Shown one piece after another: positions 30,103 to 51,187 of a stretch of DNA of 64,000 bases. This stretch comes from a phage. The number at the start of each line of letters is the position of its first letter. Positions within the stretch are counted from its first letter, which is position 1. The notes under the pieces are model-generated. The model saw nothing but the letters and a program-made list of their open reading frames with translations, ran no database searches and was not told the origin of the DNA. Both the position numbers and the translations under genes were made by a program. The DNA lies in sequence record PZ445428.1. One strand, written 5' to 3'.

Positions 30103-30618
30103 ATGGCTAAGCAGAAAAACGCAAAAACTCAGGCAGCTCCAGCAGTTAAGACTTTCCCGCAGACCGAAGCTAATCGTAAGGCTCGTCTGGAACGTCATCT
30201 GCGTAAGCATCCTGAAGATGTTCAGGCTGCACAAGCTCTGGGTCGTCCGGCTCCTGTTCGTCAGAAACCGAAGGCTAAAAACTCAACCCGAGCTGTAGCT
30301 AAACAGGTTGTGTTCATCAAAGGTGAAGGCCACAAGTCTGTACCTGTAACCCTGGGCTTCAACGGTGGAGCTGAAATGTTCTCCCGTAAGGACATGTCCC
30401 CGAAAGAGTACGAAAAAGCAGTTAATCAGAAACGTAAGCCAATGGCCGACGTATTCCGTGAAACTCGCGGCCAGTTCGGCTCTGTTAAACCGAATATCTT
30501 CGGTGTAGAGTATAGCCGTGACAACGTTCGCGCTCTGTGCTACGGCATTGGCATCAAGTTCACTGGTGCTTCTGATCGTAAATCCGCTAAACCGGCTCGT
30601 AAGCGTAAAGCGAAGTAA
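30103..30618 (+). CDS. hypothetical highly basic protein
   Basis: 171 aa, Lys/Arg-rich, possibly nucleic-acid binding. Confidence 0.55.
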   Translation: MAKQKNAKTQAAPAVKTFPQTEANRKARLERHLRKHPEDVQAAQALGRPAPVRQKPKAKNSTRAVAKQVVFIKGEGHKSVPVTLGFNGGAEMFSRKDMSPKEYEKAVNQKRKPMADVFRETRGQFGSVKPNIFGVEYSRDNVRALCYGIGIKFTGASDRKSAKPARKRKAK

Positions 30619-30676
30619 TGATTGATGGGGCGAAAGCCCCATATACTAACTCTCTTTCTAACTAAGGATATTTTTT

Positions 30677-35021: not shown

Positions 35022-36144
35022 CATAAATTAGAGAGAACAGCGAGCCGATTACGCTGAGTGCAGAATCCCAACCGGAGCGCATTGAATAGAGTCGGTGAGT
35101 TGTACTAGGATTCCTGATTAGAGAGGTTCCAGGCACCGCAGGGTTTACTCTGTACCGCTTCCAGCTATCGATATCAGGAATGAATAGTGCGCAAAACTCG
35201 GGAGCTGTCCCGAAACCTCGTAAACTCTTCTCTCTAATTTAATTAAACGATGGATCTCAGCACGAGCCAGTCACAGTGTGAAACATGGTGCGTGACCCAG
35301 GGGTAGAAGACTAGGAGTTGGCTTGAGAAACCCATGTAACTCCTAACGCTGACCCGTCTAGGTTGCAAATCGAGACATGTGTATATCACAATGAGGTAAG
35401 TGACCATCAAATAGTGGGTAGCGTAATTTTTAGGTGAATGATGGAGGTCTAACGACTGAGGGCATCATCTCGGGATTACCAGCCACGAAATAGTGGGGTG
35501 TCGAACTGACTTATGTAATAACACTGCCGTCCTAGTATAAACGGTAATATCAAGCCGTAACTGGTGGAAGATGTAGGTTCGAATCCTACGGTCGGTAAGA
35601 ATTAGATAACTCGGGCTTATACCGGATAAGCATTCGCTGCGGAAGTACATACTATGACGGTTCAGGAGGTACGCCGCCTGATCAGTATGAGGTTAGAATC
35701 GAAACCGCTAAACCACGAGGAAACCTGACGGCCTCAGCCAAACTCGGAAACTCAGGATCGCTGCTTAGTGCGTGCCCTGTTTTAACCTAGAGACTAAGCA
35801 CTCCAGCTTCGCATCGAAAATCGGAGGTGCGATTCTACTAGACCGCGTAACTATGAGAGGGGGAAATGCTCACATGAAACATGTGACTAATGGTGCACAA
35901 TAGAACAGGTAAACGCGATAAGTCCTGTTGAGTAGCAGCAGAAGGCTGGGAGTCATGACCTGAGCCTAACCGAGTTCTCCACATAGGGAGGACATAACCA
36001 CGAAGTCACCTTGACTTAAACTGGAAGATATTGTCTGACGGCAGGGCTGAAGAGCTTAATCTGAGGGGGCTGACCCTACCTACCGCCGGGTATCTTTAAG
36101 AGCTTTTGAGAGAGTTCTTAAAAATACCTAACAAAATCTATTTT
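35022..36144 (+). ncRNA. candidate structured stable RNA(s) or tRNA-like elements, about 1.1 kb ORF-free
   Basis: No ORF on either strand apart from one spurious minus ORF; higher GC; many hairpins (TAGGAGTT...AACTCCTA; AGAGAGAA...TTCTCTCT about 200 nt apart); T-arm-like GTAGGTTCGAATCCTAC at 35573-35589. Confidence 0.4.
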
Positions 36145-42806: not shown

Positions 42807-42883
42807 GGGGGTGTAATCGAATTGGCATAGGTACTGGACTTAAAATTCAGGTTTTGTGGGTTCGAATCCCACCACCCCTACCA
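42807..42883 (+). tRNA. tRNA with TAA anticodon (Leu by anticodon, short variable arm)
   Basis: Acceptor GGGGGTG/CACCCCT, loop CTTAAAA, T-arm GTGGG-TTCGAAT-CCCAC, CCA. Confidence 0.6.
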
Positions 42884-44171: not shown

Positions 44172-44246
44172 GCACCTTTAGCTGAGATGGATTAGCGCTT
44201 GCCTGAAGAGCTTGAGAGGTTGGATCGTTACCAACGGGGTGCACCA
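44172..44246 (+). tRNA. tRNA-Phe (GAA)
   Basis: Acceptor GCACCTT/GGGGTGC, D-arm GCTG...TAGC, loop CTGAAGA, CCA. Confidence 0.6.
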
Positions 44247-45329: not shown

Positions 45330-45668
45330 TGGGGTCTTAGCTAATCGGTTAAGCGTCATGGATAGCGGTGAATTCCGGCCTATGAAGGGAGTAACACGTA
45401 GTCTCCCAGACTCCACCAAATTTCAGTGCAGAACACGGAGCTAGCAATTCGGAAGTGCTGACGCGCGATAAGCTGCCTATGTACTTGCAAAGCGGACGTG
45501 TCCTAGACTCGGACTCTTGCACTGAAACCAATTAAACATTCTAGCGTGGTGGAGAGGGGACACCAGCTTGCCGAGGGTAGAAGCTCGTTCGATTCGAGTG
45601 AAAGAATGGTTCTCGTAAATCCGCACAAGTGATAGTAGGTTCAAGTCCTGCCTAGATTGACTTATTAT
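45330..45668 (+). ncRNA. cluster of tRNA-like / structured RNA elements, non-canonical
   Basis: Acceptor-like stems with encoded CCA (GGGGTCT...AGACTCCACCA; TTCAGTG...CACTGAAACCA) and T-arm-like motifs, but no canonical cloverleaf by hand folding. Confidence 0.35.
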
Positions 45669-45742: not shown

Positions 45743-46050
45743 AATTTAGGTTTATGCTTCCTAGAGAACGTACTCCTAAATAAACAAGGCGATGAGTTTC
45801 CGGCCGGTTCTAGTCGCTGAAAATCCTCCCGACCAGGTAGGTGTAGGTAAACGAAAGTTTACTTATTAAGTAAGTCCGACACATCGGCGGGTGTGTTCTA
45901 GTATTTAAAGAAGGTCTCGCAAACTTTCTCGCTAGCATGAGTTCATAGCTCGGTGACTTACCTAATAAGTAAATTTATTAAAAATGTAATTGCTATTTAG
46001 CTTAATTCTCTGTATAATATATTTTATAAAGTGATGAGAAGGAAAGCAAA

Positions 46051-46717: not shown

Positions 46718-47077
46718 ATGCAATTATCATCTAAAGTTCAAGGTTTCTTCACACATGCAACAGCAGAATTTGCTATTAGCAAGGGTTGGGACTTTGAGCA
46801 AGAACTTTCTGAGTTCTATAAAGATATAGATATGAATACACCATACATGGCCTTAGCTTCTGGACAAGAGTTCTCAGAAGGTGATCTTTTCAAGGCAAGT
46901 CAAGGCGAGGTAACGCCTGGTTTTGCCGCTTTTTGGAGTGGCTTCACAATTAAAGAAGAAGCTCCAGATGATGATGTATTTATGCAAAGCATGCACTCTG
47001 GGAGTTCTGATATGTTATTCGTTAAAGATGTACGACATATCCAAGAAGTGGTAAAAACGTATTTGCAAAATGCTTAA
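46718..47077 (+). CDS. hypothetical protein
   Basis: Start moved to ATG 7 nt after TAAGGA. Confidence 0.5.
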   Translation: MQLSSKVQGFFTHATAEFAISKGWDFEQELSEFYKDIDMNTPYMALASGQEFSEGDLFKASQGEVTPGFAAFWSGFTIKEEAPDDDVFMQSMHSGSSDMLFVKDVRHIQEVVKTYLQNA

Positions 47078-47331
47078 TTTCTTGTTATAATATTTATATA
47101 AATTGATGGGGAGAAATCCTCATCAAAGTTCACTAAGGTATTAGCTCGACCTAGGACTGGCTGCCACCAAGCACGATCCCTACGACTCGGGAGAAGTTCT
47201 AGATTAGTCCACTAGATTCAGCGGCAACTGAATAGTGTATCGGGTTTGTGAAGAGCGGGTATCCAAGCCTGGCTAATGGCACTGGGTATTACGCACACCG
47301 AGCTAATAGCCTTAGTAAACTTGAAGAATTT

Positions 47332-48001: not shown

Positions 48002-48094
48002 GGAAGAGCAAATCGACTTGGTGACGAAAACCGCTTGGAAAGTGGCTGACTTGTGAAAGCAGGCTTGAGAGTTCGAATCTCTCTTCTTCCGCCA
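48002..48094 (+). tRNA. class II tRNA, probably Ser (GGA)
   Basis: Acceptor GGAAGAG/TTCTTCC, candidate loop TTGGAAA, long variable arm, T-arm GAGAG-TTCGAAT-CTCTC, CCA; anticodon arm is imperfect. Confidence 0.5.
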
Positions 48095-48101
48095 AACAAT
48101 T

Positions 48102-48191
48102 GGAAGTACGGGCGTAGTGGTATGCAACTAGTCTTGAAAACTAGCCCGCTGTAGCGATATGGTGATGGTTCGACTCCATGTGCTTCCGCCA
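48102..48191 (+). tRNA. tRNA-Ser (TGA)
   Basis: Acceptor GGAAGTA/TGCTTCC, anticodon arm CTAGT-CTTGAAA-ACTAG, long variable arm, CCA. Confidence 0.7.
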
Positions 48192-48196
48192 AATCT

Positions 48197-48327
48197 TGGA
48201 ATATGCCGGAATTGGTAGACGGGACTGCCGAATAGGTTTACTAGGAACATCCACTCCTAGAAATATACCTTAAAAGCGGTTGAGTTAAATGGTCTAACTC
48301 GTGAAGGTTCAAGTCCTTCTATTCCTT
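48197..48327 (+). ncRNA. tRNA-like element, about 131 nt, non-canonical
   Basis: Perfect T-arm GAAGG-TTCAAGT-CCTTC and acceptor-like TGGAATA/TATTCCT, but no CCA and no canonical anticodon arm. Confidence 0.35.
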
Positions 48328-48434
48328 GATACATCAATGGCTCAAAGAGTAACGGTGCACCTTTCTAGAGAATTTCCTGGGCGAGAATCCAGGTGTAATC
48401 AACTAGTCGTTAGTGTGATGAGTTTCGGAGAGCC

Positions 48435-48581
48435 GCCACAATTGAAGATCATTGTCTGTTTGAGTCTACCATTTAGGGTCGTTACTTGTAGCGCCTATCT
48501 GCTAGGTCTAATCACTAGGTAAAGGCATGCAAGCTTCTAGTGTAGAGAGTTCGCTACTCCTCGATGGTTTTCAATTGTGGC
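48435..48581 (+). ncRNA. candidate structured RNA closed by a 12-bp long-range stem
   Basis: GCCACAATTGAA (48435-48446) pairs perfectly with TTCAATTGTGGC (48570-48581); the 3' arm overlaps the tRNA-His 5' end. Confidence 0.3.
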
Positions 48582-50818: not shown

Positions 50819-51187
50819 ATGAAAGCATATCAAAGTCTTAAATCCGGCGTAATTAACCTTGTTCATGACAATCAGATCATTCAGCTATACTCTAAAGACG
50901 GCGAACTTAAACAGAAAGTTCTAGTTGAAGATCTAGAAGGTATCACACCTCACTTTGATCCTGAAGCCTTCCGCATCGTGGATGTTAAAGTAGTTCCTCA
51001 AGTCGAGGGTGGTCAACACCTAAATGTCAACGTATTAAGTCGTGATCAGCTTTTGGATGCTCAGAAACATCCTGAAAAATATCCTCAGTTGACCATTCGT
51101 GTCTCTGGTTATGCTGTTCGATTTAATGCACTGACGCGTGAACAACAGAACGACGTTATTAGTCGTACATTTACTCAGGCGATCTAA
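50819..51187 (+). CDS. grcA: autonomous glycyl-radical cofactor (GrcA/YfiD-like)
   Basis: [12 protein letters not shown]...[37 protein letters not shown] is near-identical in pattern to E. coli GrcA, including the RVSGY glycyl-radical motif. Confidence 0.8.

What the first reader, a model, noticed from the sequence alone, without database searches (positions are those of the whole stretch)
48197..48327. 131-nt tRNA-like element with perfect T-arm but no anticodon arm
A perfect T-arm (GAAGG-TTCAAGT-CCTTC) and acceptor-like pairing (TGGAATA/TATTCCT) flank about 60 extra nucleotides, with no encoded CCA and no canonical anticodon stem-loop. It could be an intron-containing or degenerate tRNA, or a tRNA-like regulatory RNA.
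Basis: seen in the sequence. Interest (0 to 1): 0.5.

Follow-up and report, generated by a model that had tools for sequence, protein, structure and literature searches.

The report
Phage T5 "RNA1" tRNA-shaped RNA
This is the unannotated copy, in T5-like phage TrudiGerster, of phage T5's long-catalogued "RNA1": a leucine-tRNA-shaped RNA whose anticodon loop is replaced by a conserved extra hairpin, so it almost certainly cannot decode, and its job is still unknown.

Summary
Window 48197-48327 has a tRNA acceptor stem (6 Watson-Crick pairs plus U1·U72), a Leu-type D-arm, a long variable arm, a perfect T-arm and no encoded CCA.

The window is Escherichia phage TrudiGerster. The element is 95.8% identical to "rna1 / RNA1, tRNA-like stable RNA with unknown functions" in the curated T5 record, and BF23 carries the same annotation, so the object is already catalogued. 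About 495 T5-like phage records carry it; no bacterial genome does.

Thirty distinct homologs show it is neither a spliceable tRNA nor a pseudogene:
- No excision rule gives a conserved anticodon (TAA in 9/30; "AAA" in 20/30).
- The insert folds into two covarying helices, P2 and P3.
- These are capped by a nearly invariant loop, GA-ACAUCCAC-UC.
- 28 of the 29 tRNAs that ARAGORN calls in the window encode CCA; this element reads U73-GAU.

Best reading: a non-decoding, tRNA-Leu-derived stable RNA. It is co-transcribed with the early tRNA cluster, and the tRNA body acts as a processing and stability scaffold that displays the conserved hairpin. The partner and function are unknown, and the T5 homolog is dispensable in the laboratory.

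The parts
48195..48338 (+). Full RNA1 ortholog, with extent taken from the T5 rna1 annotation (144 nt)
   Evidence: 95.8% identity over all 144 nt of T5 AY543070 rna1; annotation seen
48197..48203 (+). Acceptor stem, 5' strand (UGGAAUA); U1 faces U72
   Evidence: 5 of 7 pairs change on both sides across homologs
48206..48222 (+). D-arm (CCG / GAAUUGGUAGA / CGG), Leu-type, with G18G19
   Evidence: nearly invariant; closest to the phage's own tRNA-Leu(UAG) D-arm
48224..48228 (+). P1 = anticodon stem, 5' strand (ACUGC)
   Evidence: 99.3% paired; 3 of 5 pairs change on both sides; also found by RNAalifold
48234..48237 (+). P2, 5' strand (AGGU)
   Evidence: AGGU/ACCU becomes CGAG/CUCG in Pectobacterium phage DU_PP_V
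48241..48246 (+). P3, 5' strand (CUAGGA)
   Evidence: 4 of 6 pairs change on both sides
48247..48254 (+). Apical 8-nt loop ACAUCCAC; nearly invariant together with the closing GA/UC
   Evidence: 29/30 in alignment A1; 39/41 distinct copies found with a pattern that leaves the arm free
48255..48260 (+). P3, 3' strand (UCCUAG)
48267..48270 (+). P2, 3' strand (ACCU)
48276..48280 (+). P1 = anticodon stem, 3' strand (GCGGU)
48282..48300 (+). Long variable arm (GAGUUA / AAUGGUC / UAACUC), class-II tRNA type; loop nearly invariant
   Evidence: 100% paired
48303..48319 (+). T-arm GAAGG / UUCAAGU / CCUUC
48320..48326 (+). Acceptor stem, 3' strand (UAUUCCU)
48327..48338 (+). Position 73 (U) and the 3' trailer (UGAUACAUCAAU); no CCA. 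Its first bases pair with the 5' leader (48195-48196 region)
   Evidence: alignment columns 3-140 and 4-139 covary
47062..47091 (+). Probable promoter of the transcription unit (homolog of T5 promoter P13b)
   Evidence: TTGCAA-17-TATAAT with extended TG; window 47069-47117, overlapping it, is 98% identical to part of annotated T5 P13b; no + strand terminator-like site between it and the element apart from the element's own T-arm
48339..48438 (+). Downstream neighbour: RNAI-like RNA with tRNA-like ends (GGCUC...GAGCC-G-CCA). Its 5' end defines the 3' end of RNA1
   Evidence: ends match T5 RNAI; interior diverged

Best explanation
The element is the TrudiGerster ortholog of phage T5/BF23 'RNA1', a non-decoding stable RNA derived from a class-II (leucine-type) tRNA. 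Shown: it keeps the acceptor stem, Leu-type D-arm, long variable arm, T-arm and 5-bp anticodon stem. The 7-nt anticodon loop is replaced by a 47-nt module that folds as internal loop, 4-bp helix P2, internal loop and 6-bp helix P3, capped by a nearly invariant 8-nt loop ACAUCCAC. It has no conserved anticodon, no CCA, a U1·U72 mismatch and a variable position 73. Inferred mechanism: it is transcribed from the early P13b-like promoter together with the neighbouring tRNAs and cut out by the host tRNA-processing machinery, with RNase P cleavage at the tRNA-like 5' end of the adjoining RNAI-like RNA making its 3' end. The L-shaped tRNA body gives correct processing and resistance to decay, as in engineered 'tRNA scaffolds' where a hairpin replaces the anticodon loop. 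The functional, specificity-bearing part is the displayed P2-P3 hairpin, whose invariant loop is read sequence-specifically by a still unknown partner, more likely a protein than an RNA. It is not charged and does not take part in decoding.
For: Identity: the window is 100% identical to Escherichia phage TrudiGerster, and 48195-48338 is 95.8% identical to T5 rna1. That feature is annotated 'tRNA-like stable RNA with unknown functions' in AY543070 and also annotated in AY692264 and BF23. Structure: on 30 distinct homologs 90.2% of cells pair against 36-50% in slid registers, 17 pairs change on both sides against 2-3, and 0/500 shuffles reach the observed values. P2+P3 alone give 93.3% against 36-53% and 6/10 pairs against 0-1. 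RNAalifold and a single-sequence MFE fold recover the same helices. Apical loop: invariant in 39/41 distinct copies retrieved with a pattern that does not constrain the arm, while the stem beneath takes at least 9 forms. Non-decoding: no conserved anticodon under any excision rule; ARAGORN calls Leu(taa) or Phe(aaa) depending on lineage; 28 of the 29 tRNAs that ARAGORN calls in the window encode CCA and both tRNA-Leu read A73-CCA, whereas this element reads U73-GAU; position 73 is U/A/C across the family. Leu origin: its D-arm is closest to the phage's tRNA-Leu(UAG). Transcription context: a P13b homolog lies upstream with no terminator between. Independence from neighbours: Sugarlandvirus keeps RNA1 without RNAI, RNAIII or tRNA-His, and T5's RNAI and RNAIII have no BLAST match in the window although RNA1 is 95.8% identical. 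Scaffold analogy: the acceptor, T and D arms with a hairpin in place of the anticodon loop are processed and stable in E. coli (PMC3753655).
Against: No expression, end-mapping or binding data exist for this phage. No partner was found for the loop. The nearly invariant D-loop, T-loop and variable-arm loop show that the tRNA body is itself under sequence constraint, which would also fit a model where the body, not the hairpin, is the active part (a decoy). The leader and trailer extend the acceptor helix (14 bp in Sugarlandvirus), which is not typical of an RNase P substrate, so the mature ends may differ from those of a tRNA. The diversity sampled amounts to about 5 lineages, so the covariation counts are partly inherited. 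T5-123, a deletion that removes the T5 homolog, is viable (PMC11464382), so any function is accessory.
Confidence: 0.55

Rival explanations
1. tRNA decoy or sponge. The active part is the class-II tRNA body, which titrates a host factor that recognises tRNA shape, for example a defence tRNase, a modification enzyme or a processing enzyme. Replacing the anticodon loop makes it uncleavable and non-decoding.
For: The D-loop, T-loop and variable-arm loop are nearly invariant. T5-family tRNAs are shown counter-measures to the tRNA-cleaving defences PARIS and retron Eco7 (PMC11464382; PMC10644984). The RNA is dispensable on a defence-poor lab host.
Against: This does not explain why an 8-nt apical loop about 15 bp from the body is invariant while its stem drifts. 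No target is known and no experiment exists. Known phage solutions are functional, cleavage-resistant tRNAs, not decoys.
Confidence: 0.2
2. Purely cis-acting processing signal ('punctuation'). The tRNA-like fold exists only to direct RNase P and 3' processing enzymes so that flanking RNAs (the upstream mRNA or tRNA-Ser, the downstream RNAI and RNAIII) are released. The excised RNA has no function of its own.
For: It sits directly between tRNA-Ser(UGA) and the RNAI-like RNA. The T5 annotation abuts RNA1 and RNAI with no gap. A precedent from general knowledge is tRNA-like handles that release neighbouring RNAs, as in the MHV68 tRNA-miRNA units.
Against: Sugarlandvirus retains RNA1 but has no RNAI, RNAIII or tRNA-His downstream. 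A processing handle needs no covarying P2-P3 arm with an invariant loop. RNAI-like has its own tRNA-like acceptor with GCCA ends and so should be an RNase P substrate by itself.
Confidence: 0.12
3. Intron-containing tRNA-Leu(UAA). The 40-nt insert is removed and the ligated product, after CCA addition, decodes UUA/UUG.
For: ARAGORN -i calls tRNA-Leu(taa) with a 40-nt intron at 48197-48327 and in BF23-type copies. The D-arm and long variable arm are Leu-like. No tRNA-Leu(UAA) is annotated in the 28-40 kb stretch of T5 that was examined.
Against: The TAA loop exists in only 9/30 homologs; the others give 'AAA' or nothing with U33. The insert is far too small for a group I or II intron, and Rfam finds no intron or ribozyme there. 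The junctions are 5x5 and 3x6 internal loops, not a bulge-helix-bulge, and Enterobacterales are not known to have a splicing endonuclease (general knowledge). The element has U1·U72, U73 instead of A73 and no CCA, whereas 28 of the 29 tRNAs ARAGORN calls in the window encode CCA. TrudiGerster already has a canonical tRNA-Leu(UAA) at 42807-42883. The curators who tested T5 tRNAs as suppressors list this RNA as tRNA-like, not as a tRNA.
Confidence: 0.04
4. Decaying pseudogene: a tRNA-Leu gene broken by an insertion and drifting neutrally.
For: It has no CCA, a 1:72 mismatch and no usable anticodon. It is dispensable in T5-123.
Against: It is present in about 495 phage records across three Demerecviridae lineages. 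Pairing is kept through compensatory changes in 17 pairs, including inside the insert. The loops are invariant. It is much better conserved than the adjacent RNAI/RNAIII interiors.
Confidence: 0.03

Closest known systems
Phage T5 / BF23 'RNA1' (gene rna1; GenBank AY543070, NC_005859, AY692264, AJ604530/NC_042564)
   Same: Ortholog: 95.8% identity over 144 nt. The position is the same, between tRNA-Ser(UGA) and the RNAI-like RNA, RNAIII-like RNA and tRNA-His, and the fold is the same.
   Different: It is not annotated in the TrudiGerster record. In TrudiGerster it follows tRNA-Ser directly, without the small ORF (T5.063) present in T5 and BF23. The GenBank notes give no structure or function; the covarying P2-P3 arm and the invariant loop are described here.
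Engineered 'tRNA scaffold' for recombinant RNA (Ponchon & Dardel; PMC3753655)
   Same: The architecture is the same: acceptor, D and T arms kept, with the anticodon stem-loop opened to carry an inserted hairpin. In E. coli this gives precise processing and protection from degradation.
   Different: That scaffold is man-made, based on class-I tRNAs (human tRNA-Lys3, E. coli tRNA-Met), with a CCA end. The element here is natural, class-II, without CCA and with a 1:72 mismatch. The comparison is an analogy of mechanism, not membership of a family.
Canonical bacterial and phage tRNA-Leu (class II)
   Same: It shares the D-loop GAAUUGGUAGA, G18G19, the T-loop UUCAAGU, a long variable arm and a 5-bp anticodon stem.
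   Different: It has a 47-nt 'loop', no conserved anticodon, U73 rather than A73, no CCA and U1·U72. It scores below the Rfam tRNA threshold.
Phage T4 stable RNAs (species 1 and 2, rnaC/rnaD) in the T4 tRNA cluster (from general knowledge, not tested here)
   Same: They are small stable RNAs co-transcribed and co-processed with phage tRNAs, and their function has been unknown for decades.
   Different: No sequence relationship was examined, and the T4 RNAs are not described as tRNAs with an expanded anticodon arm.
Bacterial/phage Y-RNA-like YrlA and tmRNA (tRNA-mimicking non-coding RNAs)
   Same: They are non-decoding RNAs that reuse a tRNA-like module (elbow, T-arm) attached to another functional module.
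   Different: The topology differs. YrlA has its termini in the Ro-binding stem and a closed acceptor-like hairpin; tmRNA lacks an anticodon arm, carries a tag ORF and ends in CCA. There is no Rfam match to either and ARAGORN makes no tmRNA call.

Membership tests
T5/BF23 RNA1 (tRNA-like stable RNA) | Sequence homology to the annotated rna1 feature | tested here: met
   95.8% identity over 144/144 nt to AY543070 rna1; 96.9% over 131 nt to BF23 rna1
T5/BF23 RNA1 (tRNA-like stable RNA) | Position in the early tRNA cluster: downstream of tRNA-Ser(UGA) and upstream of RNAI, RNAIII and tRNA-His | tested here: met
T5/BF23 RNA1 (tRNA-like stable RNA) | Accumulates as a discrete stable RNA in infected cells | not testable with these tools
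   Rests only on the wording of the T5 GenBank annotation; no data exist for TrudiGerster
Decoding tRNA (tRNA-Leu) | Cloverleaf with acceptor, D, anticodon and T stems | tested here: met
   (with U1·U72 in the acceptor)
Decoding tRNA (tRNA-Leu) | 7-nt anticodon loop with U33, a conserved anticodon and R37 | tested here: not met
   The loop is 47-48 nt, and no excision rule gives a conserved loop (TAA in 9/30, AAA in 20/30)
Decoding tRNA (tRNA-Leu) | 3' CCA (encoded in this phage's tRNAs) and discriminator A73 for Leu | tested here: not met
   U73-GAU here; 28 of the 29 tRNAs ARAGORN calls in the window encode CCA, and both tRNA-Leu read A73-CCA; position 73 is U/A/C in the family
Decoding tRNA (tRNA-Leu) | Reaches the Rfam RF00005 gathering score | tested here: not met
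   24.0 bits against a threshold of 29, covering the 3' part only; no hit at gathering threshold
Decoding tRNA (tRNA-Leu) | Aminoacylation by LeuRS | not testable with these tools
   Needs an acid-gel or periodate assay
Intron-containing tRNA (group I intron in tRNA-Leu(UAA); archaeal-type bulge-helix-bulge intron) | Group I: an intron of about 200 nt or more with a conserved catalytic core | tested here: not met
   The insert is 40 nt, and no Rfam intron or ribozyme match appears even at E<=10
Intron-containing tRNA (group I intron in tRNA-Leu(UAA); archaeal-type bulge-helix-bulge intron) | BHB: two 3-nt bulges on opposite strands separated by a 4-bp helix | tested here: not met
   P2 is 4 bp, but both junctions are two-sided internal loops (5x5/6 and 3x6)
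Intron-containing tRNA (group I intron in tRNA-Leu(UAA); archaeal-type bulge-helix-bulge intron) | Excision restores the same functional anticodon loop in all homologs | tested here: not met
tmRNA | tRNA-Ala-like acceptor/T domain with CCA plus a tag-peptide reading frame | tested here: not met
   ARAGORN, which also searches for tmRNA, reports none; no Rfam tmRNA hit
YrlA / bacterial Y RNA | Termini in a Ro(Rsr)-binding stem, a tRNA-like module with a closed acceptor-like hairpin, and a match to the Rfam model | tested here: not met
   No Rfam hit; the termini here lie in the acceptor stem

The most novel reading that the evidence does not exclude
RNA1 is a natural 'tRNA-scaffolded aptamer'. 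The phage uses a tRNA-Leu body to produce and stabilise a small hairpin whose invariant ACAUCCAC loop binds and neutralises, or redirects, a conserved host factor in Enterobacterales. One candidate is a tRNA-directed defence nuclease or an RNA-processing or translation factor. That would make it an RNA-based anti-defence or host-takeover effector hidden in the tRNA cluster. T5's RNA2 might be a second example.
Probability: 0.12. Interest if true: 0.75.

Novelty: already known. Interest (0 to 1): 0.35.

Why it matters
T5-family tRNA clusters have recently been shown to be counter-defence arsenals: tRNA-Lys against PARIS and tRNA-Tyr against retron Eco7. RNA1 sits in that cluster and is kept in roughly 495 sequenced phages infecting Escherichia, Salmonella, Klebsiella, Enterobacter and Pectobacterium. 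It has an evidently selected structure, yet it has had no known function since it was catalogued. Showing that it is a non-decoding tRNA scaffold displaying an invariant loop turns 'tRNA-like RNA, function unknown' into a concrete question that can be tested by mutation in a model phage for which deletion mutants already exist. There is also a practical point. Annotation pipelines treat it inconsistently: unannotated, 'tRNA-Phe', or 'hypothetical protein'. An Rfam-style family would fix that.

Tried and rejected
1. Default tRNA and Rfam scans find nothing at the site. Permissive Rfam gives only a sub-threshold partial tRNA hit and no intron, ribozyme, tmRNA or Y-RNA.
2. Spliceable tRNA: rejected by the excision-rule enumeration, by the lineage-dependent ARAGORN calls and by the 3'-end comparison.
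3. RNA partner for the apical loop:
   - The complement GUGGAUGU occurs 5 times in the window, once being the element itself, against 1.66 expected (3/100 shuffles).
   - The best extended match (2751-2762, 11/12) is antisense to an 855-aa ORF on the other strand.
   - The site at 50978 lies inside an ORF and is not conserved in other phages.
   - None of 52 held loci has a sense-strand complement near the element.
   - The 7-nt complement at E. coli 23S rRNA nt 24-30 is at chance level (214/500 shuffled loops).
4. Host origin: no blastn match in 5,426 E. coli genomes and no pattern match in 185,579 bacterial and archaeal genomes.
5. Extending the family beyond T5-like phages: three blastn walks from TrudiGerster, Sugarland and DU_PP_V return the same ~495 records. 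IMG/VR and metagenome scans return only ~100-120-kb T5-like contigs or fragments.
6. RNA2 as a structurally similar sister: it has an acceptor and a T-arm, but its fold is not better than shuffles (z=0.08), so no claim is made.
7. The 'terminator-like' hit at 48303-48319 is just the T-arm.
8. ORFs across the element are 26-40 aa on either strand, and the substitution pattern is that of an RNA helix, not a coding sequence.
9. Literature: no open-access paper discusses RNA1. The T5 deletion-mutant paper (PMID 29512629) is not held.
10. The G in the apical loop of T5 record AY543070 appears specific to that record. Other T5 records differ from it by about one base over 144 nt, but I did not confirm which base differs.
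Full report
WHAT IS THERE. The window is 100% identical to Escherichia phage TrudiGerster (MZ501108; Demerecviridae, Markadamsvirinae, Epseptimavirus), a T5-like phage of the BASEL collection. Window position equals record position minus 32480. The finding lies in the large early tRNA cluster, where ARAGORN makes 29 calls.

Neither default ARAGORN nor Rfam at gathering threshold reports anything at 48197-48327, and the GenBank record has no feature there. With introns allowed, ARAGORN calls exactly 48197-48327 as tRNA-Leu(taa) with a 40-nt insertion after position 32. The same option gave 0 calls in 30 shuffles of the 64-kb window, so the tRNA-likeness is not chance.

Reading the sequence gives these parts:
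- Acceptor UGGAAUA/UAUUCCU: six Watson-Crick pairs plus U1·U72.
- U8 and G9.
- D-arm CCG-GAAUUGGUAGA-CGG.
- Anticodon stem ACUGC/GCGGU, enclosing 47 nt.
- Long variable arm GAGUUA-AAUGGUC-UAACUC.
- T-arm GAAGG-UUCAAGU-CCUUC.
- Then U-GAU instead of N-CCA.

The claim of 'no anticodon arm' is not: the stem is present and only the loop is abnormal.

IT IS ALREADY CATALOGUED. A blastn search finds the element in 493 phage records at 72-100% identity. In the curated BF23 tRNA-region record the homolog is misc_RNA 'rna1: RNA1, tRNA-like RNA with unknown functions'. In the curated T5 genome AY543070 it is 'RNA1, tRNA-like stable RNA with unknown functions', at 30501-30644. AY692264 carries the same feature. 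Window 48195-48338 aligns to all 144 nt of T5 rna1 at 95.8% identity.

In T5 and BF23, RNA1 is followed without a gap by the stable RNAs I and III and then tRNA-His. T5 rna1 lies inside the deletion of the viable mutant T5-123 (Δ29191-32442) and just outside that of T5Mos (Δ30661-38625), both described in PMC11464382. The RNA is therefore dispensable on laboratory E. coli. I found no open-access paper that discusses RNA1.

COMPARATIVE STRUCTURE. I collected homologs from annotated phage records, IMG/VR and metagenomes, and aligned 30 distinct sequences (alignment A1). They span Tequintavirus, Epseptimavirus, an unclassified Enterobacter Markadamsvirinae phage, Sugarlandvirus and Pectobacterium phage DU_PP_V (Mccorquodalevirinae).

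I wrote the structure explicitly: acceptor, D stem, P1 (the anticodon stem), P2, P3, variable arm, T stem and a leader/trailer extension. Counting pairs gave the following:
- 90.2% of cells form standard pairs, against 36-50% when the 3' partners are slid by 1-3 columns.
- 17 pairs change on both sides, against 2-3 in slid registers.
- 0 of 500 shuffles reach the observed pairing or covariation.

For the two helices inside the insert alone, 93.3% of cells pair against 36-53%, and 6 of 10 pairs change on both sides against 0-1. Examples:
- P2 is AGGU/ACCU in most phages, GGG/CCC in the Stitch and Sugarland type, and CGAG/CUCG in DU_PP_V.
- P3 is CUAGGA/UCCUAG, UAGGGA/UCCCUG, GGGGA/UCCCC, GCAGA/UCUGC, CGGA/UCCG or UAGAGA/UCUCUA.
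- The anticodon stem switches A-U to G-C and G-C to U-A.

RNAalifold, run blind on A1, recovers the acceptor, P1, P2, P3, variable-arm and T helices. The single-sequence MFE fold of the window copy gives the same cloverleaf with an extended arm (z = -2.0).

In contrast to the drifting stems, the 12 nt GA-ACAUCCAC-UC at the tip are identical in 29 of 30 sequences. My first retrieval pattern contained that loop. I therefore repeated the IMG/VR scan, and ran the metagenome scan, with a pattern anchored only on the D-arm, the variable-arm loop and the T-arm. Of 41 distinct copies, 39 keep the loop exactly. The exceptions are the AY543070 T5 record (ACAUCCGC) and a record flagged UNVERIFIED that carries deletions. 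Other T5 records differ from AY543070 by about one base, although I did not confirm which base. The D-loop, the T-loop and the variable-arm loop are also nearly invariant.

WHY IT IS NOT A TRNA THAT DECODES.
1. The segment that would become the anticodon loop is not conserved: CUUAAAA, UCAUAAA, CGAAAAC or UCGACGG. I enumerated every way of joining x nt from the 5' side with 7-x nt from the 3' side. TAA with U33 and R37 appears in only 9 of 30 homologs. The alternative that works in 20 of 30 gives 'AAA' and fails in the TrudiGerster type. ARAGORN accordingly prints Leu(taa) for some phages and Phe(aaa), with shifting intron positions, for others. One GenBank record even annotates the element as tRNA-Phe.
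2. Of the 29 tRNAs that ARAGORN calls in the window, 28 encode CCA, and both tRNA-Leu genes read A73-CCA. The element reads U73-GAU, and position 73 is U, A or C across the family.
3. Position 1:72 is a U·U mismatch in Markadamsvirinae.
4. The insert (40 nt, or 47-48 nt counted between the stem strands) is far too small for a self-splicing intron, and no Rfam intron or ribozyme model matches even at E<=10. The junctions flanking the 4-bp P2 are two-sided internal loops, not a bulge-helix-bulge.
5. The phage already has a canonical tRNA-Leu(UAA) at 42807-42883.

It is not a decaying pseudogene either, given the compensatory changes, the invariant loops and its retention in about 495 records. 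The neighbouring RNAI and RNAIII interiors, by contrast, have diverged beyond BLAST recognition between T5 and TrudiGerster.

ORIGIN AND CONTEXT. The D-arm is most similar to that of the phage's own tRNA-Leu(UAG), scoring 12 against 8 or less for every other tRNA in the window. Together with the long variable arm, this supports descent from a tRNA-Leu.

The element is confined to phages. There is no blastn match in the E. coli genome collection and no pattern match in 185,579 bacterial and archaeal genomes. Three blastn walks from different members return the same ~495 records.

A sigma-70 promoter-like site lies about 1.1 kb upstream at 47062-47091 (TTGCAA, 17-nt spacer, TATAAT, with an extended TG). 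Window 47069-47117, which overlaps it, is 98% identical to part of T5's annotated promoter P13b. No + strand terminator-like site intervenes other than the element's own T-arm. RNA1 is thus most likely co-transcribed with the RNA2H-like RNA, two tRNA-Ala genes, tRNA-Leu(UAG) and two tRNA-Ser genes.

Immediately downstream, at 48339-48438, is an RNAI-like RNA whose ends (GGCUC…GAGCC-G-CCA) look like a tRNA acceptor stem with a discriminator and CCA. RNase P cleavage there would create the 3' end of RNA1 (inference). The order RNA1, RNAI-like, RNAIII-like, tRNA-His is kept in Markadamsvirinae and DU_PP_V. Sugarlandvirus has RNA1 without any of the three, so RNA1 is a unit in its own right and not only punctuation for its neighbours.

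The leader and trailer extend the acceptor helix. Alignment columns 3-140 and 4-139 covary, and the helix is a continuous 14 bp in Sugarlandvirus. The mature ends may therefore not be tRNA-like.

HOW IT PROBABLY WORKS. Shown: this is a conserved, structured, non-decoding tRNA-Leu derivative whose anticodon loop has been replaced by a covarying two-helix arm that presents an invariant 8-nt loop.

Inferred: the tRNA body supplies processing and stability. This is exactly what the engineered 'tRNA scaffold' exploits when a hairpin replaces the anticodon loop of a tRNA expressed in E. coli (PMC3753655). The displayed hairpin would then be the specificity module, recognised by an unknown partner.

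I looked for an RNA partner and found none above chance, which mildly favours a protein. The main rival is a decoy model in which the tRNA body itself titrates a tRNA-recognising factor. That model is attractive because T5-family tRNAs counter PARIS and retron Eco7. It does not explain the invariant distal loop. A purely cis-acting processing role, a spliceable tRNA and a pseudogene are progressively less likely for the reasons above.

VERDICT. It is nonetheless the already-catalogued RNA1 of T5-like phages, simply left unannotated in this genome. This analysis adds three things:
- A covariation-supported secondary structure.
- The demonstration that the apparent tRNA-Leu(UAA)-with-intron call is a lineage-specific coincidence.
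- The identification of an invariant apical loop as the likely functional site.

The function remains open and is readily testable in T5.

Noticed in passing
window 48002-48094 and 48102-48191: Two class-II tRNA-Ser genes (GGA and UGA anticodons, both ending GCCA) are missed by default ARAGORN and by the Rfam tRNA model at gathering threshold. They score only as sub-threshold tRNA-Sec (25 and 38 bits against 47). Both are annotated in the GenBank record, and the UGA one appears with ARAGORN -ps.
   Followed up: partly
window 48339-48438 and about 48443-48575: These are RNAI-like and RNAIII-like RNAs. The ends match T5's stable RNAs I and III: GGCUC…GAGCC-G-CCA for RNAI, and a long terminal helix UUGAAGAUCAUUG/CGAUGGUUUUCAA for RNAIII. 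The interiors are unrelated by BLAST and appear mosaic among phages. The record's CDS bas27_0126 (window 48337-48522, 61 aa) lies on top of both and is probably spurious.
   Followed up: partly
window 45537-45661: This is the homolog (88.8%) of T5 'RNA2', the second annotated 'tRNA-like stable RNA'. It has an 8-bp acceptor-like helix and a T-arm with a large insert between them, but its predicted fold is no better than shuffles (z=0.08). It is also unannotated in this genome.
   Followed up: partly
window 47139-47251, 45875-45926 and 44172-44243: There are partial matches to T5 stable RNAs 2H and IV. There is also an Rfam-only tRNA hit (33.4 bits, not called by ARAGORN) next to tRNA-Trp, which may correspond to T5's 'RNA3, putative tRNA-like RNA'.
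   Followed up: no
window 35525-35598: ARAGORN's 'tRNA-Ser(act)' is the only one of its 29 calls without an encoded CCA, and it has an implausible anticodon. Rfam scores it 36 bits. It lies outside the main cluster and may be another tRNA-like RNA or a pseudogene.
   Followed up: no
window 48435-48444 and 48571-48580: A 10-nt inverted repeat, GCCACAAUUG / CAAUUGUGGC, links the 3' end of the RNAI-like RNA to the 5' end of tRNA-His and brackets the RNAIII-like RNA. It is conserved in T5, SSP1, Stitch and KKP_3711, and may matter for processing.
   Followed up: no
L011 (Salmonella phage LVR16A) about 1030-1150; L007 and L037 (Sugarlandvirus) about 1028-1318: LVR16A has an extra ~120-nt segment inserted between RNA1 and the RNAI-like RNA. 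Sugarlandvirus has about 290 nt of non-coding sequence after RNA1, beginning with the hairpin GUGGGG-CUAAUCAAU-CCCCAC and ending with a terminator-like stem, and it has no RNAI, RNAIII or tRNA-His.
   Followed up: no
Public records: JLBYU43 (NC_105512), Sugarland gp157, SB10, Baret and others: The RNA1 homolog is annotated inconsistently across GenBank: as 'tRNA-Phe', as part of a 'hypothetical protein' CDS, or not at all. Only the T5 and BF23 records label it RNA1.
   Followed up: partly
window 42807-42883: The canonical tRNA-Leu(UAA) is only 77 nt including CCA. Its variable region is much shorter than usual for a bacterial class-II tRNA-Leu.
   Followed up: no
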